DNA of 45,202 bases from Bacteroidota bacterium. Lineage in GTDB: Bacteria; Bacteroidota; Bacteroidia; Chitinophagales; Chitinophagaceae. Below, in pieces: positions 2,360-39,847 of the stretch. The stretch lies in the NCBI GenBank assembly GCA_023392185.1, contig JAEVZP010000147.1, positions 1 to 45,202 on the forward strand, read 5' to 3'. A program made the position numbers and the translations under genes. How positions within the stretch are numbered: position 1 is the first letter of the stretch; every line of letters begins with the position of its first letter. Under the pieces are notes generated by a model, which worked only from the letters and a program-made list of their open reading frames with translations, did no database searches and was not told where the DNA came from.

Positions 2360-2393
2360 AACCGGTCTTCTGCAAGCTTGCAGAAGACCGGTT
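2360..2393 (-). terminator. perfect 34-nt palindrome, terminator downstream of the YceI-like gene
   Basis: The sequence is AACCGGTCTTCTGCAAGCTTGCAGAAGACCGGTT. On the minus strand it is followed by TTTTTGG. Confidence 0.75.
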
Positions 2394-2406: not shown

Positions 2407-2426
2407 TTTCCGGAAATTTCCGGAAA
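2407..2426. repeat. TTTCCGGAAATTTCCGGAAA: perfect 20-nt palindromic dimer of the window-wide TTCCGGAA motif
   Basis: Read directly from the sequence. It ends 4 nt from the stop codon of the YceI-like gene (2431-2433). Confidence 0.95.
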
Positions 2427-4736: not shown

Positions 4737-4815
4737 GATTAGATCCGGTGTTGCTTTCTATTTCCGGAAAATTGTGCTTCCGGAAGGAACTTTGACGCTT
4801 TCCCAAGAGTAACCC

Positions 4816-7385: not shown

Positions 7386-7406
7386 GGGTGTTTTTCCGGA
7401 AACCGG

Positions 7407-8096: not shown

Positions 8097-8351
8097 CGTT
8101 GGGGTAAAGTTTCAGAAAGCGGGGTACAAAAACCAAATTTCCCGCCCCTGAATTCCGGAAATTCCAATGTGCTTCACAATTGCCCGATACCCGGTGCTTT
8201 GTTCCTTTTGCAGAAAAGGATTTGAGCGAATAAACGGTTCTTTTCTTCCTCCAAAAAGAAAAAGGAGCGCCTTTTCAGGGGCACTCCTTTCGGACCGGAG
8301 GAAGGATGAAATTTCCGGAAAACAGCCTTTCCTTTCCGGAAAAAAACGACC

Positions 8352-9044
8352 TTATGCGGCGTCTGCCTGCGGAACGGCAGCCTTCAGCGCTTTTTTCAAA
8401 ACCGGCGGTGTTCTTTTTTCAATCGGCGGACAGAAATGGACGACGCCGCTGTAGAGGTCATACAGGGCTGGCACGACGGCTACTTCGCCTTTGTCCACCA
8501 GCTCGCGAATGATCTCGCTTTCGTCATACACGCGCTGGGCGTTCAGAATGGCGTTGCGCTTGGAGACATTGCGGTTGAAATCGCCGGTTTCCGCTTCGTT
8601 TTCGTGGGCTTTTTCATAATCAATCGCCGGCTGGATGCGCACTAAAACATCGGTCAGATGTCCCAGTTCCACACCTTTAACGGCTCCGGCAACAGCCCCG
8701 CAATTGGTGTGTCCCATGACCAGAATGAGTTTGGAACCAGCAGCGGCTACGGCATATTCCAGCGAACCGAGGATAGAAGGCATTATTACATTTCCGGCGA
8801 GGCGAATGGAAAAAATATCGCCCAGGCCCTGATCAAAAATCAGTTCGGCAGCCGTGCGGGAATCCATGCAGGACAGAATGGCGGCAAAAGGCAATTGCTG
8901 GTCGCGGGTTTGGTCGGCTTGTTCACGCAGATTGTGCTCAAGGCGCTCATTGTTGACGAATCGGTAGTTGCCGTCGCGCAGCATTTGCAGGGCAACAGCA
9001 GGCGTCAGGTCGTGGGGGCGGGGATGGCGGTCGGTAAAAGGCAT
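8352..9044 (-). CDS. beta-class carbonic anhydrase
   Basis: The motifs CMDSR...GHTNCGAV give the Zn-ligand Cys/His/Cys pattern of beta-carbonic anhydrases. The gene lies 60 nt downstream of the SulP gene on the same strand. Confidence 0.88.
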   Translation of the reverse strand: MPFTDRHPRPHDLTPAVALQMLRDGNYRFVNNERLEHNLREQADQTRDQQLPFAAILSCMDSRTAAELIFDQGLGDIFSIRLAGNVIMPSILGSLEYAVAAAGSKLILVMGHTNCGAVAGAVKGVELGHLTDVLVRIQPAIDYEKAHENEAETGDFNRNVSKRNAILNAQRVYDESEIIRELVDKGEVAVVPALYDLYSGVVHFCPPIEKRTPPVLKKALKAAVPQADAA

Positions 9045-11209: not shown

Positions 11210-11323
11210 GAAGGCCTCAAAAATAAATACCTCCGGATATAAATGCCTGTTTAAAAAATCCTAAACCGCTCGTGGCTTTTTCCCGGAAACAGCTTAGGTG
11301 TGGCAGAGCCAGGGCCGAATTGA

Positions 11324-11356
11324 AAAAGGGATGCACCTTGTTGGTACATCCCTTTT
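11324..11356 (-). terminator. hairpin downstream of the T9SS-cargo gene
   Basis: The stem is AAAAGGGATG / CATCCCTTTT with a 13-nt loop. The minus-strand 3' side is T-rich. Confidence 0.5.
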
Positions 11357-11365: not shown

Positions 11366-11385
11366 TTTCCGGAAATTTCCGGAAT
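11366..11385. repeat. TTTCCGGAAATTTCCGGAAT: dimer of the TTCCGGAA motif
   Basis: Read directly from the sequence. It lies 13-14 nt beyond the stop codon of the T9SS-cargo gene. Confidence 0.95.
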
Positions 11386-11398: not shown

Positions 11399-12403
11399 TT
11401 AGCGTACCGACAGCTTGGCAGTGCCGGCGAAAGTGCCTTGTGCAATGCGCACGAGGTACATACCGGTAGCCAGCGTGGTGTTAGCCACTGGCAGTACAAC
11501 CGTTTCGCCTTTGGCAGCAACGTTTTCAGTAGTGGCCACCACGCGGCCCGCGAGGTCGGTCACGGTTACGGTATAAGCGCCGTTCCCAGGAGCGGTAAAG
11601 GTGGCTTTCACATCGTTGGCAACGCCATTGCCCAGCAGGGTCAGCGGCAGGTTATTGGCAGCTGCGTTGGAAACGCCCTGTGCATTGTCCCAGGTGAGGT
11701 TAAAGTCGTCGATCTGCGTCGTAGCGCGGTTACCACCACCGGTAGTGACGGTCAGCGCTACAATGCGGATCCACATTTCCTGATTCATATTGTCCAGCGC
11801 ATTGCCAAAGTCGACATTGATCATGTTGCTGCCGATGGCCTTACCGCCGGTGGTCACAGTGCCGGTAACAGTCGGGGCGCTGGTAAAGGTCATTGGGGTG
11901 CCCGTACCATATTGGATAGCCCAGGTTGTAGTGCGGCCCGAAGCGGTATCGGCCGACTGCAGTTTAAAATCCAGTTTGAAGTTGGAGGAGCCTGCGGCAG
12001 GCATGAATTTGAAAACGAAAGCTGCGCCGGAGTCGGAACCGGGGAAGCTAGTGCTGGTAGCGCCTACCTGACGCACAGCGAGTGCCCGGTCGGTTATGGC
12101 TGCCTGCGAGGCAGAGTCGGCCGTGTAGTTGGCCAGCGTGACGCCGTTCATGGAAGCGCTGTTGCGGAAACCGCCCATGGTAGAGTTCCACTTTACCGGA
12201 GTAGCAGTGAATTTTGTGCTGCTTACATCATTACCGGCTGTTGTAGCCGAAGCGCCTGAGTAAACAGCCCATCCGGCCGGAAGTCCGTTCGCCAGCGTGT
12301 TAAAATCCTGAACATAGCTGGTTCCGGTCAGGTTGATGGCTTGTGCAGAAGCGCTAACGCCTGCAAAGGCAGCGGCAGCGAGGAGTAGTAGTGTTTTCTT
12401 CAT
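11399..12403 (-). CDS. secreted protein with T9SS (Por) C-terminal sorting domain
   Basis: The signal peptide is MKKTLLLLAAAAFAGVSASAQA. The C-terminal ~80 aa (YTVTVTDLAGRVVATTENVAAKGETVVLPVANTTLATGMYLVRIAQGTFAGTAKLSVR) have the typical T9SS type-A CTD pattern. Confidence 0.8.
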   Translation of the reverse strand: MKKTLLLLAAAAFAGVSASAQAINLTGTSYVQDFNTLANGLPAGWAVYSGASATTAGNDVSSTKFTATPVKWNSTMGGFRNSASMNGVTLANYTADSASQAAITDRALAVRQVGATSTSFPGSDSGAAFVFKFMPAAGSSNFKLDFKLQSADTASGRTTTWAIQYGTGTPMTFTSAPTVTGTVTTGGKAIGSNMINVDFGNALDNMNQEMWIRIVALTVTTGGGNRATTQIDDFNLTWDNAQGVSNAAANNLPLTLLGNGVANDVKATFTAPGNGAYTVTVTDLAGRVVATTENVAAKGETVVLPVANTTLATGMYLVRIAQGTFAGTAKLSVR

Positions 12404-13919: not shown

Positions 13920-13998
13920 TGTTTGAAAAAGAAAAAAGGTGTTGAAAGCAGGCGACAGGGCGGCTGCGATTGAATTTTGTAAGAAAATTTCCGGAAAC

Positions 13999-16773
13999 TT
14001 AGAATTTCAGGCTGAGGTTCACGAAGAAGTTGCGGCCATAAGCAAAGAAGTACTTCGACTGAAAGCGGTTGATCTCTCCGTTTTTATCTACCCGCAGGTT
14101 TTCAAAGCCACTGGTCCGGATGTCTTTGTTATCCAGCAGGTTGGAAACGCCGGCGTTCAGATACAGGAACGTGTTGCGCGGCAGCTTCTTAAAGGTCCGG
14201 CTCAGGAGAAAGGATTTCCCGAAAAACAAGTCCAGCGTAAAAGCAGAAGGCAGTTTTTCCTGGGCCAGGATCCGGTTAAACTCGTCGCCGCCACGGGTAT
14301 AGCCTTCCACATTGCGCTCGGTGCGGCGGGTCGGGGCCACGTCCACATAGCTGCGGTCATAGTAATTGGCGTTCAGGTTGGCATACCAGTATTTCGGTGA
14401 GCGGTAGTTGAGGCCAGCGGTATAAGCGCTTTGCGGACCCACAGCGAGGTAGTAGTTTTTGATATATACCTGCTCCGAACCACTGTAGCCGCCAAGGCCG
14501 CTGCTGTCAATATAGTTGTCGAGGTAGATATCTACCTGCGGGTTGTCGGTGTAGAACGCCTGACCCAGCGCTGCCACGCCGGTGACCGACACAGCAGGGG
14601 AAATCTTGTATTCGGCAGCTAGTTCCAGACCAATGTTGCGGGTATTGACGCCGCTCATCACATACTGCACAAAAGAGTTGGCCCCACCGGTCTCCAGGAA
14701 AAAGCGCTTCAGCACGGTTTCGTCCCTGGTGTCGGTTGCATAGCCCACCGCCCGGATATTGAGCGAAGGGGCCCGGTGCAGAAAGCCGCCTTCAAACGTG
14801 TAAGACTGTTGCTCGGTGGCATTCGGAAGTACATAGTTGCGGATGCGCGGCGAGATAAAGGTGTTGTCCAGCGTAGGGGCATCCTGCTGAATGGCGAGGT
14901 TAGCAAACAGGTAATTACGACCGTTTAGCTTATAAGTCGCACCTGCTTTGGCGCCGAAGATGGTATAGTGCTGACGCTCACTCTTGCCATAGGATTCGTT
15001 GCCGGCAGCATACAGGCCGTTGCGGTAGAAGCCTTCGCGGTCAAACGAGTTGAGGCCGAAGTTGGCTGCCAGAAACAGGTCTACTTTATTGAAAGTAAAC
15101 TGCGATTGACCCCAGATCCAGCCTTTGTTGAAATTGTTGGCATAGTTATAGGAATACCGGTCGCCGACGCGCACAATGTCATTTGGATTATTGACATCAT
15201 TGGCTGTGATGTTGATACCAACGTTGTTGTTGAAATCGGCAAACTGGTTCAGGTTCCGGAAATAATCGCCGCCCAGCAGGGCCTTCAGTTCGCGATAGCT
15301 TTCAGTGCGCTGCTTAATCAGAGACACGCCGCCGGTCACCCGTACATAGTCGCTCACCACGTGTTGCAGGGTAGCGCTCAGGACGTATTTATTGATATCG
15401 TCTACGTCGTCACCGGTTACGTACAGCGAGCGCCGCTGAAGCTGACCATTTACATTTTGAATATTGGCATAATTTACCTGGATCAGGTCATCCCACCGGA
15501 TTTGCTGAACGGTATTGAAAGGTGCGTCTGCCGGGTTTTTGTCGTCCATCTGGTAGATAGATGGCATGTTGCGGTAATAGTCCGGGCGTGGGTCGGGCGC
15601 GTTGTACCAGTCAAGCACCGAGTTCCGGTTCTTGCCGGTTTGGTAGCTAAAGGTGGTCACCAGGTTGGTCCTGGTAGTCGGCTTCCAGTCGTGGGTCAAT
15701 TGGTACACAGGCTGATAGGCATTGGCTACCCGCGCATTGCGCTTTTCGTCCTGCTGATAGCCCCAGTTGGGGTTGTAGAACGGATCGCCCGTCAACTGCA
15801 CCGACTCCAGATAAACCGGCGCGGATTTGCCCCGCTTGGTAGGCGCGCCAAAGGTGGTAAAGCTCAGCGTGTGCTGTTCGTTGAATTTCTTGCTGACACC
15901 CAGGTAGTAGCTGTAGCCGTCGTAAAAAGTACCGGGAATATAGCCTTCATCGGCCCAGCGGCGGGAACCGGAAACCGAGAGCGCCCAGCCGTTTTTGAGC
16001 AGACCGGTGCTGTGGGTCAGCATCAGCCGGTTGCGGTACTGGCGGTTGGAGGCCGAATAGGTCAGGCGCGTTTGCCGACGCTGATTGGCCGCCGTAGCAT
16101 CAAAGTAAGCCGTACCGTTCAGGCCGCCGTAGGCATATTCGCTCGGTTGCAGACCATAAGTGTTGCTGCGACCGCGGAACACATCGTTGAGGCCGCCCCA
16201 CTGGCTCCAGTACGCGTCGTTGGTTTCCACGTCGTTCATCGGTGCGCCGTTGATAAGCACCTGCTGGCTGTTGCGGTCATAGCCGCGCGGCTGAAAACGC
16301 ATCGGTCCAAAAACAAAGGCGGCTGCGTTCAGAAACGGGTCCCGGCTCGCCGACAGCAAGCCGCTCACGGAAGCCGTCTTGGCACCTTCATCGTCTCCGT
16401 CCATTTCTTCCAGCGCAATGGTCGGTATCTGAATCGACTGCATGCTGGTGGCCTGCTCGTTGGGCAACACCTGAATGTCGTTGAGCGTCACTATATCCGA
16501 ACCCACCTGAATGCGGATGGTATCAGGACGGGCATTCGCGCCGCCGATAACCAGGGTCTGATCGCCGAAAGGCACGCGGGAAAGGGTAAAATTACCGTCG
16601 GCGTCTGTATTGGTCAGTTGCCGCAGGAAAGGCAGCGACACCTGTACATCGGTTGCCGGAGCATTGGTTAATGCGCTCACCAACCGGCCCTTTACCAACC
16701 CGGTCTGGGCCTGCGCAACCACCACCGTCAGGGGCGCCAGAGCCAGCGCCGTCAGGGGTACATATTTTCGCAT
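13999..16773 (-). CDS. TonB-dependent outer-membrane receptor with N-terminal carboxypeptidase-regulatory-like domain
   Basis: The 924-aa protein has a signal peptide. A CarboxypepD_reg-like segment is present (VKGRLVSALTNAPATDVQVSLPFLRQLTNTDADGNFTLSRVPFGDQTL). A plug and beta-barrel follow, and the protein ends in the typical aromatic terminus ...FFVNLSLKF. Confidence 0.88.
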   Translation of the reverse strand: MRKYVPLTALALAPLTVVVAQAQTGLVKGRLVSALTNAPATDVQVSLPFLRQLTNTDADGNFTLSRVPFGDQTLVIGGANARPDTIRIQVGSDIVTLNDIQVLPNEQATSMQSIQIPTIALEEMDGDDEGAKTASVSGLLSASRDPFLNAAAFVFGPMRFQPRGYDRNSQQVLINGAPMNDVETNDAYWSQWGGLNDVFRGRSNTYGLQPSEYAYGGLNGTAYFDATAANQRRQTRLTYSASNRQYRNRLMLTHSTGLLKNGWALSVSGSRRWADEGYIPGTFYDGYSYYLGVSKKFNEQHTLSFTTFGAPTKRGKSAPVYLESVQLTGDPFYNPNWGYQQDEKRNARVANAYQPVYQLTHDWKPTTRTNLVTTFSYQTGKNRNSVLDWYNAPDPRPDYYRNMPSIYQMDDKNPADAPFNTVQQIRWDDLIQVNYANIQNVNGQLQRRSLYVTGDDVDDINKYVLSATLQHVVSDYVRVTGGVSLIKQRTESYRELKALLGGDYFRNLNQFADFNNNVGINITANDVNNPNDIVRVGDRYSYNYANNFNKGWIWGQSQFTFNKVDLFLAANFGLNSFDREGFYRNGLYAAGNESYGKSERQHYTIFGAKAGATYKLNGRNYLFANLAIQQDAPTLDNTFISPRIRNYVLPNATEQQSYTFEGGFLHRAPSLNIRAVGYATDTRDETVLKRFFLETGGANSFVQYVMSGVNTRNIGLELAAEYKISPAVSVTGVAALGQAFYTDNPQVDIYLDNYIDSSGLGGYSGSEQVYIKNYYLAVGPQSAYTAGLNYRSPKYWYANLNANYYDRSYVDVAPTRRTERNVEGYTRGGDEFNRILAQEKLPSAFTLDLFFGKSFLLSRTFKKLPRNTFLYLNAGVSNLLDNKDIRTSGFENLRVDKNGEINRFQSKYFFAYGRNFFVNLSLKF

Positions 16774-16945: not shown

Positions 16946-18043
16946 TTATTTGCTGTTGAGTTGCTGAATCAGTGCCTGAAGCTGGCCCTCGCTGACCTCG
17001 GCGAGGTTAAAATCATAGCCTACATAGGTTTTGCCGGCAGCCGGCGACGGGATGGTCACGTCGCGCATTTCGGCATACAGCTTGTTGCCGAGCGAACTGA
17101 TGACCAGGAAAGTACCTTCCTGTCCCACCGGCATCGAGTTTTGATAGCTGAGAAAGCCTTCTCTGCCGGCCGCCGGATTCAGAATCGTGGTATACAGCTT
17201 TACCAGCAGATTGGTATTTTTGGCTTTGAAGAATACCATAGAAGGATCCTGAGCCGTTACATTTCCGGAAAGCGGGTTGTATTTATCGCCTAAGAAGCAC
17301 AAGACGGTTGTGCGAGGCGTGGTTTCGTTGTAAAGCGCATCTACATTACGCCAGGCGCCCAGCGAATCGAGGTTAAAATAATTGGCGCTGTCGTTGGCAA
17401 TGGCAAAACCGGGCATCTCGCGCCACTCCATTCCTTTTTTAAAGGTGTATTGCGCCGAAACGGTCGTAGGGGCGTTCTCATGGTTATATCCCTGTGCAGT
17501 AATCGTCACCGAGGTGTCGCCGCTCCAGAGTGGAATGTCTTTTTGTGTTCCGCTGCTTCCGGTACCAATCGGCATGGCCACGTTCAGGGAGCGTGTCATG
17601 GCTGCATTGGGAGGCAATTGCAGTTCCTGTCCATCCTGCTCGGCTTTCACTATAATTTGCCCATAACACTCGAGCATTCTGCCGGAAGTAGCAACCGAAG
17701 GTTTATCGGCCAGCAGCATCTGATCGGGGCGCAGGATGTCGCGCACCCAGACGTTAACGGTCCCGCTCACCGGGTTTCCGTTCAGCCGGAGCGCGTTCGG
17801 CGCAATGGTAATACGGGTGCCGTTGGAAGTAGTCAGCGTGCCACCGGCAGCCGCGTCGATACTGAAGCGTTCGTTCTGTGGGCGGTGTTTGTCGAAAAAG
17901 GCCTTCATAGTGGCAGCGCCCTGTCGCATGGCGACGCTATCGGCCGAGAAAGCCGGGTCTATAATGACATTTTCTTTATAGCAGGAACTGAGCATGGCAG
18001 CGCCCAGGAAAGCCGTAGCGAGTAGGAAAGAAAGCCTTTTCAT
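16946..18043 (-). CDS. hypothetical lipoprotein
   Basis: The lipobox is MKRLSFLLATAFLGAAMLSSC. The protein is 365 aa and has its own intrinsic terminator downstream. No family is recognised. Confidence 0.6.
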   Translation of the reverse strand: MKRLSFLLATAFLGAAMLSSCYKENVIIDPAFSADSVAMRQGAATMKAFFDKHRPQNERFSIDAAAGGTLTTSNGTRITIAPNALRLNGNPVSGTVNVWVRDILRPDQMLLADKPSVATSGRMLECYGQIIVKAEQDGQELQLPPNAAMTRSLNVAMPIGTGSSGTQKDIPLWSGDTSVTITAQGYNHENAPTTVSAQYTFKKGMEWREMPGFAIANDSANYFNLDSLGAWRNVDALYNETTPRTTVLCFLGDKYNPLSGNVTAQDPSMVFFKAKNTNLLVKLYTTILNPAAGREGFLSYQNSMPVGQEGTFLVISSLGNKLYAEMRDVTIPSPAAGKTYVGYDFNLAEVSEGQLQALIQQLNSK

Positions 18044-18354
18044 AGCGACAAATTTTAAAGATTTTTAAAAAGGGCTGCACAGAAAGAACGCCCCCGACAG
18101 CTAACCCCCCTATCAGCATCTCGTCTCGAAGGCAGGCGGTCTTCTTCCCGGCAATGCTTTAAAAAGGCCGTATCAGTCCCCGGGATTTCCGGAAATTTCA
18201 CCAAATAAAAGCGGTCAGGGCCCCTCTTTGTGTCCGGCGGGCATATCCAACTAGAAACCATTCCAGTCCCGCCAAAACCGTTTTTCACAAAAACCGCTGA
18301 ACATTTTTCCTCAAATTTGCTTTCCTTCCTTCTCAATCTTTAGCATTTAAAACC

Positions 18355-18567
18355 ATGAACACTTTTCGTTTTAAAACCAATATCAACTGCGGCGGCTGTA
18401 TCAAAGCGGTAACGCCTTTTCTGAACGAAGCCGAAGGCATTCAAAACTGGGAGGTCGATACCGTGAACCCGGACAAGATCCTGACGGTGCGGGCCGACGG
18501 CCCTGATGCCGAAACCATTCAAAGCATTATAGCAGATGCCGGATTTGAAGCAGAGGTCCTGGCTTAG
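18355..18567 (+). CDS. heavy-metal-associated (HMA) domain protein, CopZ-like
   Basis: The 70-aa protein has a ferredoxin-like HMA pattern. Its metal-binding loop is NINCGGCIKAV (CxxC). Confidence 0.75.
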   Translation: MNTFRFKTNINCGGCIKAVTPFLNEAEGIQNWEVDTVNPDKILTVRADGPDAETIQSIIADAGFEAEVLA

Positions 18568-18679: not shown

Positions 18680-18718
18680 AAATCGCCCCTAAACCGAATT
18701 ACGGTTTAGGGGCGATTT
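18680..18718. terminator. 17-bp-stem hairpin between the convergent HMA gene and the 78-aa ORF (possible bidirectional terminator)
   Basis: The stem is AAATCGCCCCTAAACCG / CGGTTTAGGGGCGATTT with loop AATTA. Both sides are A/T-flanked. Confidence 0.65.
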
Positions 18719-18771: not shown

Positions 18772-18791
18772 TTTCCGGAAATTTCCGGAAA
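18772..18791. repeat. TTTCCGGAAATTTCCGGAAA: perfect 20-nt palindromic dimer of the TTCCGGAA motif
   Basis: Read directly from the sequence. It lies 34-35 nt beyond the stop codon of the 78-aa ORF. Confidence 0.95.
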
Positions 18792-18825: not shown

Positions 18826-19062
18826 CTACAACAGCGGCTCGTTCCCTTCAAGGGTGCGCTTGGTAAGACCGGTTTGCAGCTCCACTTCCAGACGCCCGGC
18901 TTTTTCGCGGGCTTCTTTTTCGTCGGCCGCTTCTACAGTCGCGTAGAGCGTTTCGCCGGTGCGTTCTTCCAGAATGGTGTCGTTGGTCGGGTCGGCTTCG
19001 CCGTCGGTAGCAGGCAACACCGATACCAGTCTTTTGCCTACAAAGGTTACGCGGTACAGCAT
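18826..19062 (-). CDS. small acidic hypothetical protein (78 aa)
   Basis: An ATG-initiated ORF lies 74 nt downstream of the frameshifted ORF pair on the same strand. No family is recognised. Confidence 0.4.
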   Translation of the reverse strand: MLYRVTFVGKRLVSVLPATDGEADPTNDTILEERTGETLYATVEAADEKEAREKAGRLEVELQTGLTKRTLEGNEPLL

Positions 19063-19136: not shown

Positions 19137-19881
19137 TTACCGGCCGCCGGCTTCCATTCCGGAAAGTATCTGGTTGCGGATCTCGCCCAGGACGCTGCTG
19201 AGGAAGTCGAAGGTTTGCAGATTGGTATGAAAAACCTGTGGCTCGTAGCAGAGATATTGCGGTGCGCCTTCAGCATCTTTAATGCGCAGGACCGGTAGAA
19301 ATTCCGGATACAGAAAAAACAAAATGCCGTGGGTATAACGGTTTCGGTCTTCGATATATGCTTCGTAGCGCCGCGTAAAATCTTTCCGGCTTTCCGGGGT
19401 AGAAAGGGCCGCAATGGTGTGGAGCGCTTCATCGGTTTTGACAATGCAGCTAGAGCAGCCCCCGCAGGTTTTCGAACGTGAGCCGGTCAAAGGTTTCCGG
19501 GGTTACAGATTCCTGCATCCGGCGGCAGGCAGCGTTCCGGTCCAAAACTCCGGCCAGCGGGTGCGCGCGCAGATACAGCGCGAGCGTATCGGCCAGCGTA
19601 TCGAGGTTCAGCTCGGCCAGCCGCCGCATCTTGCCGATGGCGTAGGTAAAATCGTTGAAGCGCCGGTACACCGCTTCGCTGTAGCGCTGCGGGTCCACCG
19701 GCACGTGAATCCGTTCACCAATATTGTTTTTCTCCGCCAGCACCAGCGTCGGCACAATGTGGATGTCTGTCAGCGCGCCGCTGTCCGGGTCATAAACGTT
19801 TTGGGGCGCAAAGATTTCGATACGGACTTCGTCGGGCGCTACCAAAAGGGTGTGCGGGGGCTTGGGTTCAATCGGATCCAT
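19137..19881 (-). pseudogene. hypothetical protein split by a frameshift (ORFs 19450..19881 and 19137..19490 overlap by 41 nt)
   Basis: The downstream ORF has only a TTG start, which lies inside the upstream ORF. Removing one C from the C5 run at 19459-19463 fuses the two frames into one ORF of about 247 codons (...TFENLRGCSSCIVKTDEALH...). Confidence 0.45.
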
Positions 19882-19979
19882 TGCGCCACAGCGGTGTTAA
19901 AAGATATGCCGCCGGTAACGGTGGGCGCCATTGCCCCCTGCTTTCCTACCTTTGCGGCCTTTATTGTACCCCGTATTTC

Positions 19980-21809
19980 ATGGATCGTAATCAGATCATC
20001 GGGTTTTCGCTGTTGGTGGCCCTGCTCGCTGCGTATGTAGTGTGGAACAGCAAAAACCAAAAAGAGTATCAGGAGCAAAAGCAAAAACAGGCAACCGCCG
20101 ACTCGATTGCTTATGCCAAAGCCAACCCCAAAGCTGCGGCAACGCCCCTGCCTGCCGACACGCTCGCAGCCCTCTCCGGCGCTACGGCTGCCGACAGCAA
20201 CCTGCCCGCGGCGCTGCGGCGCGGGGCCGGTGAAGAAATCGTGCTCGAAAACAACGATGTGGCCCTCACCTTCTCGACCCGGGGTGCCCGCCTCGTCAAC
20301 GCCCGGCTGAAGAATTATAAAACCTTCCGGGGAGAGCCGCTCGACCTTTTCGCCGGAGATAACAATGGTATCGCCTTTACCCTGCCGGTTGACAATGGCC
20401 GCAGTACGTCCGATCTGCTCTTTACACCGGTGGCGGCCGCCGGTGCCGATGGAGCCAAAGCCATCGACTTTGCTGCCGACCTGGGCAATGGCAAGCGCAT
20501 CGACCTGATTTATTCGCTTCCTGCCGAAAACGGCATGGCGCAGCTGACCGTGCGCACCACCGGCATGAACGCCAACATGCTGCCCTTTACCTGGAATGTA
20601 GCCGGTCGGCAAACCGAGCGTGATATTACCGTAGAGCGCCACAATGCGCAGGTCTACCACCGCTATAAAGACGGCGACAACGACTACTTTACCATCTCGG
20701 AGGCAAAAGAAGAAAGCTACAAAGAGAACCTTCAGTGGATCGGTTTCCGGAAATTTTACTTCAGCACGGCCCTCCTGAGCGACGACGGCCTCAGCCGGGG
20801 CGTCCTGAAAGCAGTGCCTTCTACCGGTGATTCTGCTGCTACCGTAGCCACCGTGACCGCTAAAGCAGAACTGCCCCTGCGCAACGGGGAAGGCTCCCTG
20901 CGCTGGTATATCGGCCCTAACCAATACAAGGTGCTGAAAAGCTATAAAGCAGGTCTCGACGAAATGGTTCCGCTGGGATACGGACCGTTCTTTTTCGTCA
21001 AATACATCAATAAAGGGCTGATCATTCCGGTATTCGATTTCCTGCACGACAATGTGGGCATCATCAATATGGGTGTCATCATCATGTTGCTGACCCTGTT
21101 CATCCGCCTCATCCTGTCGTTCTTTACCTATAAAAGTTATCTGTCTTCGGCCAGGATGCGCGTGCTGAAGCCCGAACTCGACGAGCTGCGCGAGAAGTAC
21201 AAAGACAATCAGCAGGAGCTGGGCATGGAGCAGATGAAGATGTACCGCACGGCCGGGGTGAACCCACTGGGCGGTTGCCTGCCCATGCTGCTGCAGATTC
21301 CCATTCTGTTTGCCATGTACTACTTCTTCCCCTCGGCCATCGAGCTGCGGCAGAAGTCGTTCCTGTGGGCCAACGACCTGAGTACCTATGACTCGGTGCT
21401 GGATTTGCCGTTCAACATTCCGTTCTACGGCGATCACGTTTCGCTGTTTACCATCCTGATGACCTTGTCTTCGCTGGCGCTGGCGCTTTACAGCCGCAAC
21501 ATGACGCCGCAGGATCCCAACAACCCGCTGCTGAAATGGATGCCTTTCATCTTCCCTTTCCTGCTTCTCGGGGTGTTCAACAAGATGGCGGCTGCCCTCA
21601 CGTTCTACTACTTTTTCTCCAACGTGGTGTCGCTCATCCAGCAGTTCGTGATTCAAAAACTGTTTATCAACGAAGCGAAGATCCACGCCAAGATTCGCGA
21701 GAACCGCAGCAAGCCGCAGCAGCAAAGCAAATGGGCACAGCGCCTGGCCGAGATGCAGCAGGCACAGGCAGAGCGCTCCAAGCAAATGCCGCGCCGCAAA
21801 GACTCGTAA
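19980..21809 (+). CDS. yidC: membrane protein insertase YidC
   Basis: The ORF 19881..21809 is trimmed to the ATG at 19980 (MDRNQIIGFSLLVALLAAYVVW). It has a large periplasmic P1 domain. The conserved C-terminal 5-TM core includes LKPELDELREKYKDNQQELGMEQMKMYRTAGVNPLGGCLPMLLQIPI. Confidence 0.92.
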   Translation: MDRNQIIGFSLLVALLAAYVVWNSKNQKEYQEQKQKQATADSIAYAKANPKAAATPLPADTLAALSGATAADSNLPAALRRGAGEEIVLENNDVALTFSTRGARLVNARLKNYKTFRGEPLDLFAGDNNGIAFTLPVDNGRSTSDLLFTPVAAAGADGAKAIDFAADLGNGKRIDLIYSLPAENGMAQLTVRTTGMNANMLPFTWNVAGRQTERDITVERHNAQVYHRYKDGDNDYFTISEAKEESYKENLQWIGFRKFYFSTALLSDDGLSRGVLKAVPSTGDSAATVATVTAKAELPLRNGEGSLRWYIGPNQYKVLKSYKAGLDEMVPLGYGPFFFVKYINKGLIIPVFDFLHDNVGIINMGVIIMLLTLFIRLILSFFTYKSYLSSARMRVLKPELDELREKYKDNQQELGMEQMKMYRTAGVNPLGGCLPMLLQIPILFAMYYFFPSAIELRQKSFLWANDLSTYDSVLDLPFNIPFYGDHVSLFTILMTLSSLALALYSRNMTPQDPNNPLLKWMPFIFPFLLLGVFNKMAAALTFYYFFSNVVSLIQQFVIQKLFINEAKIHAKIRENRSKPQQQSKWAQRLAEMQQAQAERSKQMPRRKDS

Positions 21810-21854
21810 TCAGATTCCGTTTTCCGGAAATCTCCGCGAAAAACTTTCACCCAA

Positions 21855-24865: not shown

Positions 24866-24912
24866 GAGCGCCCAACCTGTCAGGTTTCAAAAACCTGACA
24901 GGTTGGGCGCTC
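24866..24912. terminator. perfect 22-bp-stem hairpin between the convergent GH3 gene and recJ
   Basis: The stem is GAGCGCCCAACCTGTCAGGTTT (24866-24887) / AAACCTGACAGGTTGGGCGCTC (24891-24912) with a 3-nt loop. There is no clear T-run. Confidence 0.55.
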
Positions 24913-24943
24913 GATTTCCGGAAATTATTGTTTTAAAATCCCC

Positions 24944-26689
24944 CTAATAAGAAGGCCGCACATCAATCACTTTGAGCTGCAGGCGCGTCGTTCCCTGAAA
25001 CACGTTTTCTTCCACGCCATATACCATATCGAACGGCCCGGCATCTACATACGGAAACTTCGCCGCAAGCCCAAAGCCAATACCGTCCATAGAAACGCCA
25101 CCGCGTTCATGCACCACAAACCGAATGTGACTGTCTTTCACCACGCGGCTCAACCCACGGTAATTGTGCACACCGCGGGTCATAAATACCGGGCGCGGAT
25201 TGGCGGGGCCAAATGGCTCAAACTGCCGCAGAATATTATAAAAAGCCGGCGTAATGTCGGCAAACGAAAGCACCGCGTCAATGCCTATTTCCGGATTGAG
25301 CTGTGAAGGCTTAATCGTTCCGGCGACCACTTCTTCAAAGCGTTCCCGGAAAGAATCCAGATTTTGAGGCAACAGGGTCATGCCGGCAGCATAAAAATGA
25401 CCGCCATACGCTTCGAGCAAATCGCGGCAGGCGTGTAGCGCCTCATAAATATTAAACCCAATCACCGAGCGCGCCGAGCCGCTGATGCGGCCATTGCTGT
25501 GCGTCAGCACAATCGTGGGCCGGTAAAACTGTTCTACCAGCCGCGAGGCCACAATGCCCACCACGCCTTTATGCCAGTCCGGCGAATACACAATCGTCGC
25601 TTTCCGGGTTTCGGTGAGCGGGTCGGTGCGCAGCAACTCCAGCGCTTCTTCGGTCGTGTGCCGGTCTTTTTCGCGCCGGTCGGTATTGTCGTTTTGCAGC
25701 TCCAGCGCAATGCGCTTCACTTCTTCCGGATCGTCGGAGGTGAAGAGCGCCACAGCCTTTTTCGCGTCATCCATGCGTCCGGCGGCATTCACCCGTGGAC
25801 CAATCACAAAAACCAGGTCCGAAATGGTCATCTTTTGCGTCAGTCCGGTGAGCTCCCGCAAGGTCTGAAGAGCGATCGACGGCGACTCTGCCGCCCGCTT
25901 CAGGCCATAAAAAGCCAATACCCGGTTTTCACCGTCAATAGGCACCAGATCAGCTGCAATGCTGGTGGCCACGAGATCCAAGTAGCGGTAGGCGGCTTCC
26001 TGTGGCAGTTTCCAGTGAATGCACAAGGCCTGCACGAGCTTGAAACCAATGCCGCAGCCCGAAAGCTCTTTGTAGGGATACTCGCAACCGGGTTGTTTGG
26101 GATTCAGAATCGCAAACGCCTTTGGAAGCTCTTCATCGGGCAGGTGGTGGTCACCAATAATCACATCAATGCCCAAGCTCTGCGCATAACGCACCAGGTC
26201 GGCGCTCTTGATCCCGCAGTCGAGGGTGATGACCAGATGATAGCCGTGTTTTTTGGCATAGTCAATGCCTTCCTTGCTAAGGCCATAGCCTTCGCGGTAG
26301 CGGTGCGGAATGTAATACGCCAGCGAATCGTCGCGCAGGTCGGGGTAGTGGCGGCGCAGAAAATCATACACCACTGACACCGCTGTGGTGCCGTCTACAT
26401 CATAGTCTCCGTAAACGAGGATACGTTCGTGCCATTCTACCGCTTCGGCAATGCGCTTCACCGCTTCGTGCATGCCTTTCATCAAAAAAGGATCGTGCAG
26501 GTGCTCCAGCTGCGGCCGGAAAAAATCTTTGGCTTCCTCAAAAGTGGTGATGCCACGCAAGACCAGTAGCTGACATAAGGCTGGATTGATCTTCAGCGAT
26601 TCTACCAGCCGGGCGACAGTATCGGGGTCGGGTTTTTGCACCACCCACCTTTTGGTGAGCGGCGCCGGATTGGGGATAGACGGGTTCAT
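24944..26689 (-). CDS. recJ: single-stranded-DNA-specific exonuclease RecJ
   Basis: DHH-family motifs are present: VYGDYDVDGTT, ITLDCG and IGDHH. A DHHA1 region is also seen (GGHFYAAGMTL). The start ATG overlaps the kmo stop codon (ATGA at 26686-26689). Confidence 0.92.
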   Translation of the reverse strand: MNPSIPNPAPLTKRWVVQKPDPDTVARLVESLKINPALCQLLVLRGITTFEEAKDFFRPQLEHLHDPFLMKGMHEAVKRIAEAVEWHERILVYGDYDVDGTTAVSVVYDFLRRHYPDLRDDSLAYYIPHRYREGYGLSKEGIDYAKKHGYHLVITLDCGIKSADLVRYAQSLGIDVIIGDHHLPDEELPKAFAILNPKQPGCEYPYKELSGCGIGFKLVQALCIHWKLPQEAAYRYLDLVATSIAADLVPIDGENRVLAFYGLKRAAESPSIALQTLRELTGLTQKMTISDLVFVIGPRVNAAGRMDDAKKAVALFTSDDPEEVKRIALELQNDNTDRREKDRHTTEEALELLRTDPLTETRKATIVYSPDWHKGVVGIVASRLVEQFYRPTIVLTHSNGRISGSARSVIGFNIYEALHACRDLLEAYGGHFYAAGMTLLPQNLDSFRERFEEVVAGTIKPSQLNPEIGIDAVLSFADITPAFYNILRQFEPFGPANPRPVFMTRGVHNYRGLSRVVKDSHIRFVVHERGGVSMDGIGFGLAAKFPYVDAGPFDMVYGVEENVFQGTTRLQLKVIDVRPSY

Positions 26690-29498: not shown

Positions 29499-30153
29499 AA
29501 TGCCAAGCAGGCTATAAAGAATCGTTCCCGACCTGTTTTTCGGAAAATCTCTTTCCTTTTTCCGGAACTGAAAGTAACCTCTTCCAATCCAAAACCATAC
29601 GGGTGCAAACAAAGCGAGCAGGTGAAGCACCGTTATCGCAGACAGGGTTTCATCCACCAGGAATCTACCCAGAAAAAGCGACGCCGCAAGTGGCAAAAAA
29701 GCAAAGGCAAGGGCAGACCGAAATGCGCTGGCGCGAACTGCCGGCAGGCCAACGAGGAACAGGGTTGCGGAACACAGTGCAAGCAGCAGGGCAGTGCCGG
29801 AAAGAATGGTTTCGGTAAAGCCTGGCATATAGCAGTTACGCCGAGAGTCAGCTACAAAAACAGCCTGTAAAAGCGCCGTTAGCACAAGGGTTGTGAGCAC
29901 CGAAAAGCCGACAATGCGCCCGAAGGTTTTCCAGAGAAAGGTTTTCAGATTCATTATTTGCAAAAGGATTCAGAGCGTTTTTAAGATGCGTTGAAAAGCG
30001 GAATCATCGGGCCCCAGTGCATCGTTCAGGGCGGAGATTTCCGGAAATTTCCTGCTTAAAGTGCCCCTTTAAGTATTGGCAAAAAGAGAGACGCCCAAAT
30101 TGGGCGTCTCTGCGAGCGCTGTATCTTTTTTTGCCTTCGCTTTTGATATTCAT

Positions 30154-30207
30154 CTTTCCGCAGAACGCGCCTCTTTCCGCAGAACGCGCCTCTTGGCGCG
30201 TTCCTAC
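30154..30207. repeat. 19-bp perfect tandem duplication (CTTTCCGCAGAACGCGCCT x2) ending in the GAACGCGCC/GGCGCGTTC hairpin
   Basis: The repeat units are 30154-30172 and 30173-30191. The hairpin spans 30182-30204. AGAACGCGCCTCTTGGCGCGTTCCTAC matches 431-457 with one loop difference. Confidence 0.85.
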
Positions 30208-31019: not shown

Positions 31020-31281
31020 AAGGCTAAGGTAGGGTGGGGGCAAAATTTTTTTGATTTTGGAAAATGTTTTCCGTCGTAACATTGCTTCATCATTTCCTAT
31101 GGTGACGGATTTGGCAAAGCAATGAGCCGCGCGAAAAACTTTTTCTCCGCACCCCCACTGTATTTTCCGGAAATCACACCCTGACGCCTTCCCGTTTTTC
31201 CACTGAGGCAGGCCTGAAGCGAACGTGTCGTTCCCGATTTTCCCTTTCGTTACATTTTTATTTTACCGACGTCATTTTTTC

Positions 31282-33894: not shown

Positions 33895-33927
33895 AAGTGT
33901 TTTTTGGAAAGAAGTTTCCGGAAAAAG

Positions 33928-34548: not shown

Positions 34549-35601
34549 TTATTCCCCCAAAATGCGCAATTGCTTTTGAACGCTGCTCAGGTGAATCAGC
34601 TGAAACAAATCGGCGACCTCAGAAGGCTCCAGGCCGTGCAGCAGTGCCCATTCGCTGCGGGTACGCAAAATCTCGCGCCAGCGCTCCGGCTGAAAAGCCG
34701 TCATGCCCTGTGTTTTTTTGATCTCGCCGATTTGCCGCGACAGGTCAAAGCGGCGGCCCAGCAGGTGCACCATCTCAGCGTCAATGGCGTCCATTTGACT
34801 GCGCAGGGCCGAGAGGCGTTCGTCGCCTTCGCAAGGGGTGCGTCGCACCACCAGCCGCGACAAAATCTGCCGCAGCGTTTCGGGGGTCACCTGCTGTGCG
34901 GCATCGCTCAGTGCCTTATCAGGATCGGCGTGGGTTTCAATCATCAGCCCGTCGAAGCCGAGGTCAAGCGCCTTTTGCGAAACCGGCTCAATGCCCGGGC
35001 GATTTCCGGAAATATGGCTTGGGTCGCAGATGATTTTGAGGTCAGGGCGGCGGCGGCGCAGCTCGATTGGAACGGCCCACGACGGCGGATTGCGAAACGG
35101 CGAAGCAGCGCCATAACCCGGAAAGCCGCGGTGAATGGCCCAGACGTCGGCAAAGCCGGCGCGCTCCATGCGCTCGATGCCGCCCAGCCACAGATCGGCA
35201 TCGGGAATCACCGGGTTTTTAACCAAAACCTGCACGGGTGCGCCGCGCAAAGCATCCGCCAGTTGTTGCACCGAAAAAGGATTGACCGTTGTGCGTGCGC
35301 CAATCCAAACGGCATCCACACCGGCTTTGAGGGCGGCTTCCACATGCCCGGCGTCGGCCACTTCTACCGCTACCGGAAATCCGTACTGTTCTCGTACTTC
35401 TGTCAGCCAGGAAAGGGCTTCCGGGCCAACTCCTTCAAAAGCACCTGGCCGGGTGCGCGGCTTCCAGACACCCGCCCGGAAGAAGCGCAGGGGCAGGTCT
35501 TCCATTCCGGCTGCCGTCGCCAGCACCTGTGCGCGCGATTCGGCGCTACACGGGCCGGCAATAAGGGTGAAATCGGGCGCTGCGGAATCAATAGGGTCCA
35601 T
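34549..35601 (-). CDS. bifunctional 3-deoxy-7-phosphoheptulonate synthase / chorismate mutase
   Basis: The ATG is at 35599-35601. The DAHPS type I-beta body includes LIAGPCSAESRAQVL and FRAGVWKPRTRPGAFEGVG. The C-terminal chorismate mutase type II segment is LRSQMDAIDAEMVHLLGRRFDLSRQIGEIKK. Confidence 0.85.
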   Translation of the reverse strand: MDPIDSAAPDFTLIAGPCSAESRAQVLATAAGMEDLPLRFFRAGVWKPRTRPGAFEGVGPEALSWLTEVREQYGFPVAVEVADAGHVEAALKAGVDAVWIGARTTVNPFSVQQLADALRGAPVQVLVKNPVIPDADLWLGGIERMERAGFADVWAIHRGFPGYGAASPFRNPPSWAVPIELRRRRPDLKIICDPSHISGNRPGIEPVSQKALDLGFDGLMIETHADPDKALSDAAQQVTPETLRQILSRLVVRRTPCEGDERLSALRSQMDAIDAEMVHLLGRRFDLSRQIGEIKKTQGMTAFQPERWREILRTRSEWALLHGLEPSEVADLFQLIHLSSVQKQLRILGE

Positions 35602-37095: not shown

Positions 37096-37108
37096 AAAAA
37101 CACGCGCT

Positions 37109-37789: not shown

Positions 37790-37898
37790 AGAAAATTTCC
37801 GGAAAATTCTTCCGCGACGCGGTTTGGCGTGTCTGCACCTGAAATTTGCAAAGAGCGGGCCGAAGGCTGTTTTGGCCTTTCTACCGTAAATTTCGCTT

Positions 37899-39831: not shown

Positions 39832-39847
39832 CAAATTCTCCTAAACC

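What the first reader, a model, noticed from the sequence alone, without database searches (positions are those of the whole stretch)
18772..18791. 10-bp-phased tandem dimers of the motif form perfect 20-nt palindromes at three separate loci
TTTCCGGAAATTTCCGGAAA occurs perfectly at 2407-2426 and 18772-18791. At 11366-11385 it occurs with a single terminal change. Half-extended versions (ATTTCCGGAAATTTC) lie at 18185-18199 and 30037-30051. The two cores are spaced exactly 10 bp apart, which puts them on the same face of the helix. The 20-mer can also fold as an 8-bp hairpin (TTTCCGGA AATT TCCGGAAA) on either strand. All five sites are intergenic. This looks like a dimeric operator or a bidirectional structural element, not chance juxtaposition.
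Basis: seen in the sequence. Interest (0 to 1): 0.7.

Follow-up and report, generated by a model that had tools for sequence, protein, structure and literature searches.

The report
Genome-wide iterated palindrome, locally doubled
The flagged 20-mers are real, but they are doubled copies of a 10-base palindrome (TTTCCGGAAA) that occurs about once per 800 bases in this uncultured Bacteroidota genome, most densely just after stop codons, so it resembles the cyanobacterial HIP1 word and Neisseria/Haemophilus DNA-uptake words and is not a gene-specific operator.

Summary
The 20-mer is exact at 2407 and 18772 and has one mismatch at 11366. All five cited sites are intergenic. Its flanks are not conserved, and it is far more frequent than chance.

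The dimers are the extreme of a genome-wide feature. The core TTCCGGAA occurs 57 times in 45 kb (0.7 expected). It lies in coding sequence in all three frames, far above what codon usage predicts. It is 3-5 times denser between genes and peaks 2-30 nt after stop codons, usually just upstream of a separate terminator hairpin.

Two related MAGs (about 79% nt identity) show the same density. They keep 66-71% of sites at orthologous positions, against 18-20% for other 8-mers. More distant relatives carry TTCCGGAA without the T/A extension, or the palindrome TGCCGGCA, or nothing. Orthologous sites read TTCCGGAA, TGCCGGAA or TGCCGGCA, so sites arise by substitution.

Copies pair at spacings of 10, 20-22 and 31 bp. 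Some dimers sit mid-gene, where a 10-bp duplication is impossible.

Best reading: a HIP1/USS-like iterated palindrome read as duplex DNA by a two-fold symmetric protein. The dimers are in-phase doublets, not operators or terminators. The reader protein and the biological role remain unknown.

The parts
18772..18791 (.). Focal perfect dimer (2 x TTTCCGGAAA). It starts 35 nt after the stop of the 78-aa gene 18826-19062(-), in the convergent spacer with the HMA gene 18355-18567(+).
2407..2426 (.). Perfect dimer 5 nt after the stop of the YceI-like gene 2431-3204(-). An orthologous dimer is present in MAG OH_PBB_261 (L009 4177-4196).
11366..11385 (.). Dimer with one terminal mismatch, 14 nt after the stop of the T9SS-tail gene 11399-12403(-). 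Orthologous dimers are present in both MAGs (L063 2410, L072 7314), while the flanks carry indels.
18185..18199 (.). Monomer plus TTTC ('half-extended'), in the divergent promoter region between 16946-18043(-) and 18355-18567(+).
30037..30051 (.). Monomer plus TTTC, in the intergenic region between 28131-29963(-) and 30273-31082(-).
8312..8342 (.). Pair of monomers spaced 21 bp apart, after the stop of the carbonic anhydrase gene 8352-9044(-). The orthologous site in L054 is a 10-bp dimer.
4761..4785 (.). Pair of cores spaced 16 bp apart, after the stop of gene 3222-4736(+).
13988..13997 (.). Single copy 1 nt after the stop of the SusC-like gene 13999-16773(-). The orthologous site is a 10-bp dimer in L072 and an 11-bp-spaced pair in L063.
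7393..7402 (.). Single copy in the 21-bp spacer between convergent genes 7185-7385(+) and 7407-8096(-).
21821..21830 (.). Single copy after the stop of yidC 19881-21809(+).
24915..24924 (.). Single copy after the stop of recJ 24944-26689(-), followed by a REP-like hairpin at 24873-24905.
33915..33924 (.). Single copy after the stop of rho 31225-33894(+), followed by a terminator hairpin at 33928-33955 plus a T-run.
37796..37805 (.). Single copy after the stop of the RsmI-like gene 37082-37789(+).
35003..35012 (.). Example of an in-gene copy (DAHP synthase gene). The orthologous position reads TGCCGGAA in L098 and TGCCGGCA in L100.
2360..2393 (-). Separate 15-bp terminator hairpin plus T-run, downstream of the 2407 dimer. 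It is not part of the motif.
11323..11356 (-). Separate terminator hairpin plus T-run, downstream of the 11366 dimer.
18682..18716 (-). Separate 15-bp terminator hairpin plus T-run, 55 nt downstream of the focal dimer.
8260..8291 (-). Separate terminator hairpin downstream of the 8312-8342 pair.

Best explanation
TTTCCGGAAA (core TTCCGGAA) is a lineage-specific highly iterated palindrome. It is a genome-wide DNA word of the same kind as cyanobacterial HIP1 and the USS/DUS uptake words.

Shown here. It is spread over genes and spacers at about 1.3 copies per kb. It is created by point substitution, not by transposition. It is retained at orthologous positions far better than other 8-mers. It changes 'dialect' between related lineages around a constant CCGG centre.

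Inferred. It is read as duplex DNA by a two-fold symmetric (dimeric) protein. Copies accumulate where they cost least, in the spacer between stop codon and terminator.

The 20-mers are two copies placed one helical turn apart. That arrangement is itself favoured, because pairs also peak at 21 and 31 bp and dimers arise even inside genes. They are not gene-specific operators and not terminators.
For: Abundance:
- 57 cores in 45.2 kb against 0.66 expected (zero order), or 2.7 expected under a 2nd-order Markov model (O/E 20.8). TTCCGGAA is the top 8-mer and TTTCCGGAAA the top 10-mer in the window.
- 822 cores in 595 kb of the window plus two related MAGs, against about 9 expected.
- Most loci returned by the 20-mer genome scan come from two Bacteroidota MAGs, OH_PBB_261 and UBA1952 (42 and 32 of the 96 stretches). 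The window is syntenic with them at 77-85% nt identity.

DNA-level origin:
- In-gene copies use all three frames: 93, 148 and 198 observed against 9.8, 29.6 and 3.6 expected from codon usage. The encoded peptides are themselves 1.4-2.9 times enriched.
- Flanks carry no information.

Maintenance:
- 42/64 in-gene cores and 36/51 intergenic cores are identical at the aligned position in another genome, against 20% and 18% for all other 8-mers.

Dialects:
- Relative L099 (80% LpxB identity) has 36 cores per 21 kb without the T/A extension.
- L100 and L102 (71-72%) have TGCCGGCA instead, 21 and 18 copies.
- L098 (85%) and L101 (68%) have neither. In L098, TCCGGA is depleted (1 against 5.8 expected) and the hybrid TGCCGGAA is enriched.
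- The same orthologous codons read TTCCGGAA, TGCCGGAA or TGCCGGCA in different lineages.

Placement:
- Density is 14/kb at 0-20 nt after stops, falling to about 1/kb beyond 60 nt in convergent spacers.
- 27% of 406 gene ends carry a copy, and 11 of 29 in the window.
- Where a strong hairpin is present, it starts a median 8.5 nt after the last copy.

Pairing:
- Spacing peaks at 10, 20-22 (23 pairs) and 31 bp, against about 0.7 per other spacing value. Spacer sequences are unrelated.
- 9 of 83 dimers lie mid-gene in three frames, where a 10-bp duplication would shift the frame.

Literature parallels:
- HIP1 conservation and alternative HIPs (PMC5861425, PMC4390886).
- HIP1 boosting transformation (10.1101/2024.09.10.611283; 10.64898/2026.06.24.733823).
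- DUS dialects (PMC3630211).
- USS pairs at gene ends (PMC1852404).
- USS shaping proteomes (PMC2817400).
Against: - No reader protein was identified. A regex scan of the 595 kb in hand found no m5C, N4 or N6 methyltransferase or Vsr signature. That is only roughly 10-15% of each MAG by my estimate, so the result is inconclusive.
- C>T one-off variants are not depleted, so there is no Vsr-type signature.
- Nothing is known about competence in this lineage. Known uptake words are asymmetric, and their pairs form the terminator itself. Here the pairs lack U-tracts and sit upstream of separate terminators.
- The concentration within about 45 nt of stop codons, with only about 1/kb in the middle of convergent spacers, is sharper than a simple 'least harmful place' model predicts. 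It hints at a gene-end role.
- Helical phasing is not a known property of HIP1 or USS.
- The MAG loci were ascertained by containing a dimer, which inflates counts at spacing 10 and the post-stop statistics. The window alone, the in-gene statistics and spacings other than 10 are free of this bias.
Confidence: 0.6

Rival explanations
1. Gene-end punctuation. A sequence-specific dimeric DNA-binding protein occupies phased TTTCCGGAAA sites immediately after stop codons. It would act as a roadblock or insulator, or manage supercoiling at 3' ends. In-gene copies would be lower-affinity or tolerated sites.
For: There is a sharp peak 2-30 nt after stops (14-17/kb), with about 1/kb beyond 60 nt in convergent spacers and depletion 0-15 nt before start codons. 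About a third of gene ends carry a copy. Presence at a given 3' UTR is conserved while the arrangement varies. Spacings of 10, 21 and 31 bp fit one face of the helix. Post-stop copies match the full 10-mer best (92% T and 88% A at the outer positions).
Against: More than half of the cores lie inside genes. They are equally well conserved there and forced against codon usage, which a gene-end function does not explain. Canonical terminators still follow. Relatives with the word (L099) show no pairs. To my knowledge no sequence-specific protein terminator or insulator is known in bacteria.
Confidence: 0.15
2. Passive mutational by-product. A TCCGGA-type methyltransferase with a biased short-patch or mismatch repair system ratchets near-matches into the palindrome. 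There is no selected function, and dimers are incidental.
For: The word has a type II-like palindromic core (TCCGGA; GCCGGC in the sister dialect). Dialect changes and complete loss with TCCGGA depletion in L098 parallel Elhai's link between HIPs and methyltransferases, and his observation of the lowest HIP1 frequency in a strain with a cognate endonuclease. Sites arise by substitution.
Against: C>T variants are not depleted, and conversion is seen at outer positions (T/G at position 2) that deamination repair cannot drive. Positional concentration after stops and phased pairing need something extra. No methyltransferase or Vsr was seen in the sampled DNA, although that sample is incomplete.
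Confidence: 0.1
3. RNA-level 3'-UTR element. The transcribed dimers or pairs form a stem-loop right after the stop codon that stabilises the mRNA 3' end or binds an RNA-binding protein.
For: Dimers fold into a 7-9 bp hairpin (-10 kcal/mol), and the 21-bp pair folds into an 11-bp stem. The position between stop codon and terminator means they are transcribed.
Against: Isolated monomers cannot fold, yet they make up about half of post-stop occurrences. In-gene copies are conserved equally well. The spacing preference is for 10-12 nt loops, not 4-8 nt loops. There is no orientation asymmetry relative to the gene.
Confidence: 0.07
4. Classical dimeric operator of a transcription factor controlling the adjacent genes.
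For: The site is a perfect palindrome doubled at 10 bp, and it is conserved at orthologous sites.
Against: Sites lie downstream of stop codons of unrelated housekeeping genes (YceI, T9SS protein, 78-aa protein), not at promoters. At least 45 dimers in one related MAG and 36 in the other were found in a truncated scan. The unit occurs about 1,260 times per Mb, including inside genes.
Confidence: 0.03
5. Part of a mobile repeat: a REP/RAYT-type element, a MITE, or a transposon target duplication.
For: The location at gene 3' ends resembles that of REP/BIME elements. A distinct REP-like hairpin family does exist nearby.
Against: There is no conserved flank. The unit is only 10 bp. 54-58% of cores lie inside genes without indels. 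Orthologous sites differ by substitutions.
Confidence: 0.02

Closest known systems
HIP1 and other highly iterated palindromes (HIPs) of cyanobacteria (GCGATCGC; Robinson 1995, Elhai 2015 PMC4390886, Xu 2018 PMC5861425)
   Same: It is a perfect 8-10 bp palindrome. It occurs about 1,260 times per Mb, within the 300-2,700 per Mb range reported for HIP1. It is present in genes in all frames beyond what codon usage predicts. It propagates by substitution. It is conserved at orthologous sites more than control octamers. Its palindromic extensions differ between genomes. Some relatives carry an alternative palindrome and some have lost it. A relative that lacks the word also shows site depletion.
   Different: The sequence is different (TTCCGGAA / TGCCGGCA, with a CCGG centre) and the phylum is different (uncultured Chitinophagales/Sphingobacteriales-like Bacteroidota). 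It is strongly concentrated 2-30 nt after stop codons. Copies pair at 10, 21 and 31 bp. No cognate methyltransferase has been identified yet. The kilobase-scale periodicity reported for HIP1 was not examined.
DNA uptake sequences: USS of Pasteurellaceae and DUS of Neisseriaceae (PMC1852404, PMC3630211, PMC2817400)
   Same: It is a word of about 10 bp at about one copy per kb. About half of the copies lie in genes, and it distorts peptide content. It is enriched between genes at gene ends and often occurs in closely spaced, mutually complementary pairs. It shows lineage 'dialects' around a conserved core. Positions are stable between related species.
   Different: Known uptake words are asymmetric and proteobacterial. 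Their pairs form the terminator stem and are followed by T-runs. Here the word is palindromic, the pairs lack T-runs, and they sit upstream of separate terminators. Competence, a receptor and biased uptake are all untested.
REP/BIME elements of enterobacteria
   Same: They lie between stop codon and terminator in 3' UTRs. They are palindromic, numerous and bound by proteins such as gyrase and IHF.
   Different: REPs are 20-40 nt imperfect palindromes, strictly extragenic and mobilised by RAYT transposases. This word is 10 bp, mostly perfect, and more than half of its copies lie inside genes.
Type II restriction-modification sites TCCGGA (BspEI/Kpn2I class) and GCCGGC (NgoMIV/NaeI class) (from my own knowledge, not tested)
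   Same: The two dialect cores are exactly these hexamers, which share a CCGG centre.
   Different: Restriction sites are normally avoided, not about 90-fold enriched. No R-M gene was seen in the sampled DNA.

Membership tests
Highly iterated palindrome (HIP) class | Short perfect palindrome that is the most over-represented octamer, at hundreds to thousands of copies per Mb | tested here: met
   57 per 45.2 kb (about 1,260 per Mb). O/E is about 86 at zero order and 20.8 under a 2nd-order Markov model. It is the top palindromic octamer. The same density holds in two related MAGs.
Highly iterated palindrome (HIP) class | Present in coding DNA in all frames, not explained by codon usage or peptide selection | tested here: met
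   Frames 0, 1 and 2 show 93, 148 and 198 observed against 9.8, 29.6 and 3.6 expected.
Highly iterated palindrome (HIP) class | Propagates by nucleotide substitution, without conserved flanks or indels | tested here: met
   Flank logos are flat. Orthologous codons read TTCCGGAA, TGCCGGAA or TGCCGGCA.
Highly iterated palindrome (HIP) class | Sites conserved between genomes more than control octamers | tested here: met
   66% (in genes) and 71% (intergenic) against 20% and 18% for all other 8-mers.
Highly iterated palindrome (HIP) class | Cognate (orphan) DNA methyltransferase recognising the core | tested here: inconclusive
   A regex scan for methyltransferase and Vsr motifs in 595 kb found none, but only a fraction of each MAG was available.
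HIP1 proper | Sequence GCGATCGC in cyanobacteria | tested here: not met
   The sequence is TTCCGGAA, and the genes are Bacteroidota-type (T9SS tail, SusC-like, long Rho).
DNA uptake sequence (USS/DUS) | Word of about 10 bp at about one copy per kb, in genes and spacers, with dialects in relatives | tested here: met
DNA uptake sequence (USS/DUS) | Preferential uptake of word-bearing DNA by competent cells, plus a specific receptor | not testable with these tools
   The organism is uncultured, and complete genomes were not searchable for competence genes.
DNA uptake sequence (USS/DUS) | Complementary pairs form the Rho-independent terminator hairpin | tested here: not met
   Pairs and dimers are followed by a T-run in only 7-19% of cases. 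A separate hairpin lies a median 8.5 nt downstream.
REP/BIME (RAYT-associated) | Extragenic imperfect palindromes of 20-40 nt | tested here: not met
   The unit is 10 bp, and 54-58% of cores lie inside genes.
Transcription-factor operator | Few sites, positioned at promoters of a regulon | tested here: not met
   Dimers lie mostly within 20 nt after stop codons, and 9 of 83 are inside genes. The word is depleted just upstream of start codons.
Intrinsic terminator | GC-rich hairpin directly followed by a U-tract | tested here: not met
   The hairpin is 7 bp at -10 kcal/mol (z = -1.5) with no U-tract. Separate canonical terminators lie downstream.

The most novel reading that the evidence does not exclude
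The word is a protein-read 'gene-end mark'. A two-fold symmetric DNA-binding protein would bind phased TTTCCGGAAA sites (10, 21 and 31 bp apart) placed within about 30 nt after the stop codon of roughly one gene in three. It would act as a sequence-specific roadblock, insulator or supercoil-management site just ahead of the terminator. Protein and sites would co-evolve in dialects (TTCCGGAA to TGCCGGCA) between sister lineages. A less exotic but still new alternative is the first palindromic DNA-uptake or self-recognition word system, with dialects, in Bacteroidota.
Probability: 0.15. Interest if true: 0.85.

Novelty: new variant of a known kind. Interest (0 to 1): 0.62.

Why it matters
HIP1 has lacked an agreed function for about 30 years, and uptake words are known only from two proteobacterial families. 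This is an independent system of the same kind in another phylum.

It has three features that make the problem more tractable:
- Close relatives differ in state: TTTCCGGAAA, TTCCGGAA, TGCCGGCA, or absent with TCCGGA depletion.
- The same orthologous sites are seen in different dialects, so the conversion process can be measured directly.
- The sharp post-stop placement and helical phasing give concrete, testable predictions about protein binding.

There is also a practical use. The word is a strong compositional marker for binning and for detecting foreign DNA in these MAGs. It also warns annotators not to call these sites operators or terminators.

Tried and rejected
- Longer mobile repeat: rejected. 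Flank logos of 822 monomers and 78 dimers are flat.
- Peptide or codon artefact: rejected.
- Canonical terminator: rejected. There is no T-run and separate hairpins lie downstream. A strict terminator scan shows only a weak, non-significant association (20% against 12%, P = 0.09).
- Vsr-type signature (depleted C>T one-offs): not seen.
- Methyltransferase, Vsr or restriction genes: none in the window and none by regex in 595 kb of MAG loci. This is inconclusive.
- Known RNA families and tRNAs: none in the window.
- Phage carriage: a scan of IMG/VR for the 20-mer gave three unrelated singletons with no enrichment.
- Literature: searching for the sequence itself returned only primers and unrelated papers. 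No paper in the held library links iterated palindromes with Bacteroidetes.
- Source record of the window: the look-up by exact LpxB sequence failed.
- Chi-like reading, prompted by recD-recC-recB in the window: considered and set aside. The word is palindromic and concentrated after stop codons. It is not formally excluded.

Full report
**1. Observation**

The 20-mer TTTCCGGAAATTTCCGGAAA is exact at 2407-2426 and 18772-18791. It has one terminal mismatch at 11366-11385. None of 100 dinucleotide-preserving shuffles gives any match with up to 3 mismatches. The two half-extended sites, 18185-18199 and 30037-30051, are as described.

All five sites are intergenic. This holds for a codon-model gene call I trained on the data. 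That call agrees with Pfam hits and with an independent gene call of the same DNA (L097).

**2. The dimers belong to a genome-wide feature**

- The 10-mer occurs 30 times exactly. With up to 1 mismatch it occurs 60 times, against 3.25 ± 1.67 expected.
- The 8-mer core TTCCGGAA occurs 57 times in 45.2 kb. The zero-order expectation is 0.66 and the 2nd-order Markov expectation is 2.7 (O/E 20.8). It is the commonest 8-mer, and TTTCCGGAAA the commonest 10-mer, in the window.
- Thirty-three of the 57 cores lie inside genes.
- The window genes are ordinary housekeeping genes of a Bacteroidota organism. They include an RluB-like gene, YceI, HemN, SulP, a T9SS-tailed protein, a SusC-like receptor, YidC, L,D-transpeptidases, RecJ, a long Rho, LpxB, RsmI and RecD/RecC/RecB.
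- No methyltransferase or restriction gene is present in the window.

**3. Where else the word occurs**

I scanned one genome for each of 185,579 species for the 20-mer. Of the 96 stretches it returned, 42 and 32 come from two MAGs, 'Bacteroidetes bacterium OH_PBB_261' (JAEWBT01) and 'UBA1952' (DDEO01). The remaining hits are isolated singletons in unrelated taxa.

Each 8-kb locus from the two MAGs carries about 10-15 cores. The window is a third relative, syntenic with both at 77-85% nucleotide identity. Pooling the window and 74 MAG loci (595 kb) gives 822 cores against about 9 expected. One-mismatch variants are only 1.2-7 times enriched. C>T variants are not depleted.

The logo is (a/t)(a/t)T-TTCCGGAA-A(t/a)(t/a), with nothing conserved further out. 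Seventy-eight dimers likewise show no information beyond T(-1) and A(+20).

**4. The force acts on DNA**

Inside genes the core is found in all three frames (93/149/198 copies). Given the peptides actually encoded, codon usage predicts 9.8, 29.6 and 3.6 copies. The observed counts are 93, 148 and 198. The peptides F-R-K/N, [ILVF]-P-E and S-G are themselves 1.4-2.9 times over-represented. The same effect is known for uptake sequences (PMC2817400) and HIP1 (PMC5861425).

**5. Maintenance and dialects**

In about 95 kb of alignments between the three genomes, the core is identical at the aligned position in 42/64 in-gene cases and 36/51 intergenic cases. All other 8-mers are identical in 20% and 18% of cases.

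I then used LpxB homologues of graded identity to fetch relatives. The results come:

| Relative | LpxB identity | Length | Finding |
|---|---|---|---|
| L099 | 80% | 21 kb | 36 TTCCGGAA cores, without the T/A extension |
| L100 | 71% | 21 kb | almost no TTCCGGAA, but 21 copies of TGCCGGCA |
| L102 | 72% | 15.9 kb | almost no TTCCGGAA, but 18 copies of TGCCGGCA |
| L098 | 85% | 21 kb | neither word; TCCGGA depleted (1 vs 5.8 expected); hybrid TGCCGGAA enriched (8 vs 0.7 expected) |
| L101 | 68% | 21 kb | neither word |

At orthologous codons the site at window 35004 reads TTCCGGAA in the window, TGCCGGAA in L098 and TGCCGGCA in L100. Window sites 36485 and 36685 read TTCCGGAA in L099 and TGCCGGAA in L098.

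Sites are therefore made and remade by substitution. The preferred word shifts between sister lineages around a constant CCGG centre. This matches the alternative HIPs of cyanobacteria (PMC4390886) and the DUS dialects of Neisseriaceae (PMC3630211).

**6. Placement**

Density is 0.84-0.94 per kb in genes and 3-4 per kb between genes. The intergenic copies are not spread evenly.

- The core is almost absent from the last 33 nt of genes. It rises abruptly from +2 after the stop codon, stays at about 5-6 hits per position to +27, and then decays. There is no fixed offset.
- Normalised density is 14/kb at 0-20 nt after a stop codon and 2/kb at 0-20 nt before a start codon.
- In convergent spacers density is 11-17/kb within 30 nt of a stop codon, but about 1/kb beyond 60 nt.
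- 27% of 406 gene ends carry a copy within 40 nt. In the window, which is free of ascertainment bias, 11 of 29 do.
- L099 shows the same bias: 5 of its 9 intergenic sites lie within 11 nt after a stop codon.
- Strong hairpins follow motif-bearing ends about as often as motif-less ends (54% against 42%, not significant; in-gene control 20%). Where present, the hairpin starts a median 8.5 nt downstream of the last copy.
- In the window the order stop, word(s), hairpin plus T-run holds for YceI, carbonic anhydrase, the T9SS gene, the 78-aa gene and rho.

**7. The dimers themselves**

- Each of the three window dimers lies 5-35 nt after the stop codon of a minus-strand gene and upstream of a separate strong terminator.
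- Of 83 dimers in the pooled data, most lie within 20 nt of a stop codon.
- The window dimers at 2407 and 11366 have orthologous dimers in the other genomes, while the flanks carry indels.
- The arrangement at a given 3' UTR varies between genomes. The SusC-like gene end has a monomer in the window, a 10-bp dimer in L072 and an 11-bp-spaced pair in L063. The carbonic anhydrase gene end has a 21-bp-spaced pair in the window and a 10-bp dimer in L054.
- Spacings between successive cores peak at 10 bp (this value is ascertained), 20-22 bp (6, 13 and 4 pairs, 23 in total) and 31 bp (4 pairs). Other spacing values average about 0.7 pairs, and only five pairs fall in the whole 12-19 bp range. Spacer sequences are unrelated.
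- This pattern fits helical phasing (10.5 bp) better than a preference for small hairpin loops.
- Nine dimers lie mid-gene in well-scoring genes, in three frames (FPEISGN/K, ISGNFRK, FRKFPE). A 10-bp duplication would shift the reading frame there, so these dimers arose by substitution. Adjacency itself therefore appears to be favoured.
- Only 7-19% of dimers and pairs are followed by a T-run. The 20-mer hairpin is modest: 7 bp, -10.1 kcal/mol, z = -1.5.
- Relatives L099, L100 and L102 show no close pairs. Pairing may therefore be specific to the clade that uses the 10-mer form.

**8. Interpretation**

The shown facts place this in the class of highly iterated palindromes and uptake-type genomic words. 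The facts are hyper-abundance, a DNA-level origin, substitutional spread, orthologous retention and dialects.

The remaining steps are inferred:
- that a two-fold symmetric protein reads the duplex site;
HIP1 is linked to methyltransferases and, recently, to transformation efficiency (10.1101/2024.09.10.611283; 10.64898/2026.06.24.733823). USS/DUS are linked to uptake;
- that the spacer between stop codon and terminator is where copies are best tolerated.

The sharp post-stop peak and the phasing are not explained by the HIP1 or USS precedents. They keep alive a more novel reading in which a protein marks gene ends. I rate that reading at about 0.15.

A gene-specific operator, a terminator, an RNA-only element and a mobile repeat are each contradicted by specific tests listed above.

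**9. Caveats**

- The MAG loci were retrieved because they contain a dimer. This inflates the count at spacing 10 and somewhat inflates the post-stop statistics. The window alone, the in-gene statistics, the ortholog test in genes and all spacings other than 10 are free of this bias.
- Gene calls outside the window are my own simple model.
- Relatives were sampled at only 16-21 kb each.
- No reader protein, methylation state, transcript end or uptake behaviour could be tested.
- The statement that this has not been described rests on the held literature only.

Noticed in passing
window 2306-2338 and 24873-24905; similar elements in MAG loci (listing): A second repeat family: long, near-perfect hairpins of the form AAACCT(ATAAGG/GTCAGG)TTT-loop-AAACC...AGGTTT. 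They lie in 3' UTRs just beyond the TTTCCGGAAA copies and look REP-like. There are 5 arm matches in the window against 0.03 expected.
   Followed up: partly
L100 (ERZ24825753 contig) and L102 (ERZ25067797 contig), whole loci: Sister lineages (71-72% LpxB identity) carry a different hyper-abundant palindrome, TGCCGGCA (21 per 21 kb and 18 per 15.9 kb), in place of TTCCGGAA.
   Followed up: partly
L098 (ERZ26165376, 970-kb contig), whole 21-kb locus: This close relative (85% LpxB identity) has no TTCCGGAA. TCCGGA is depleted (1 against 5.8 expected) and palindromic NNCCGGNN words are almost absent. The hybrid TGCCGGAA is enriched (8 against 0.7 expected) and sits at positions orthologous to the window's sites. 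This looks like loss or purging of the word, possibly through restriction avoidance.
   Followed up: partly
L012, L019, L021, L022, L035, L048, L060, L062/L094, L066 and others: The exact 20-mer also occurs as isolated intergenic singletons in unrelated bacteria and archaea, and as trimers in L019 and L035. There are at least 22 such hits in a truncated scan, where my estimate of the chance expectation in 596 Gb is about one or fewer. The two Halorientalis copies share flanks.
   Followed up: no
window 34296-34373: A 78-nt intergenic stretch between rho and the DAHP synthase gene is 89.7% identical to L067 4629-4705. It contains two short hairpins. It is not a tRNA or an Rfam family and may be a small RNA.
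   Followed up: partly
window 37899-45202: There is a contiguous recD-recC-recB cluster. The sequence TTCCGGAAATCCGCT recurs three times in this stretch (38639, 40648 and 43298).
   Followed up: no
window 30153-30194 and 1461-1609: There is a perfect 19-bp tandem repeat (2.2 copies of TCTTTCCGCAGAACGCGCC) in the spacer near the 30037 site. There is also a 78-bp tandem repeat (1.9 copies, 80% matches) inside the N-terminal part of the pseudouridine synthase gene.
   Followed up: no
window 31225-33894: The Rho factor is 889 aa. Its RNA-binding and ATPase domains start only at about residue 526, so it has a very long N-terminal extension.
   Followed up: no
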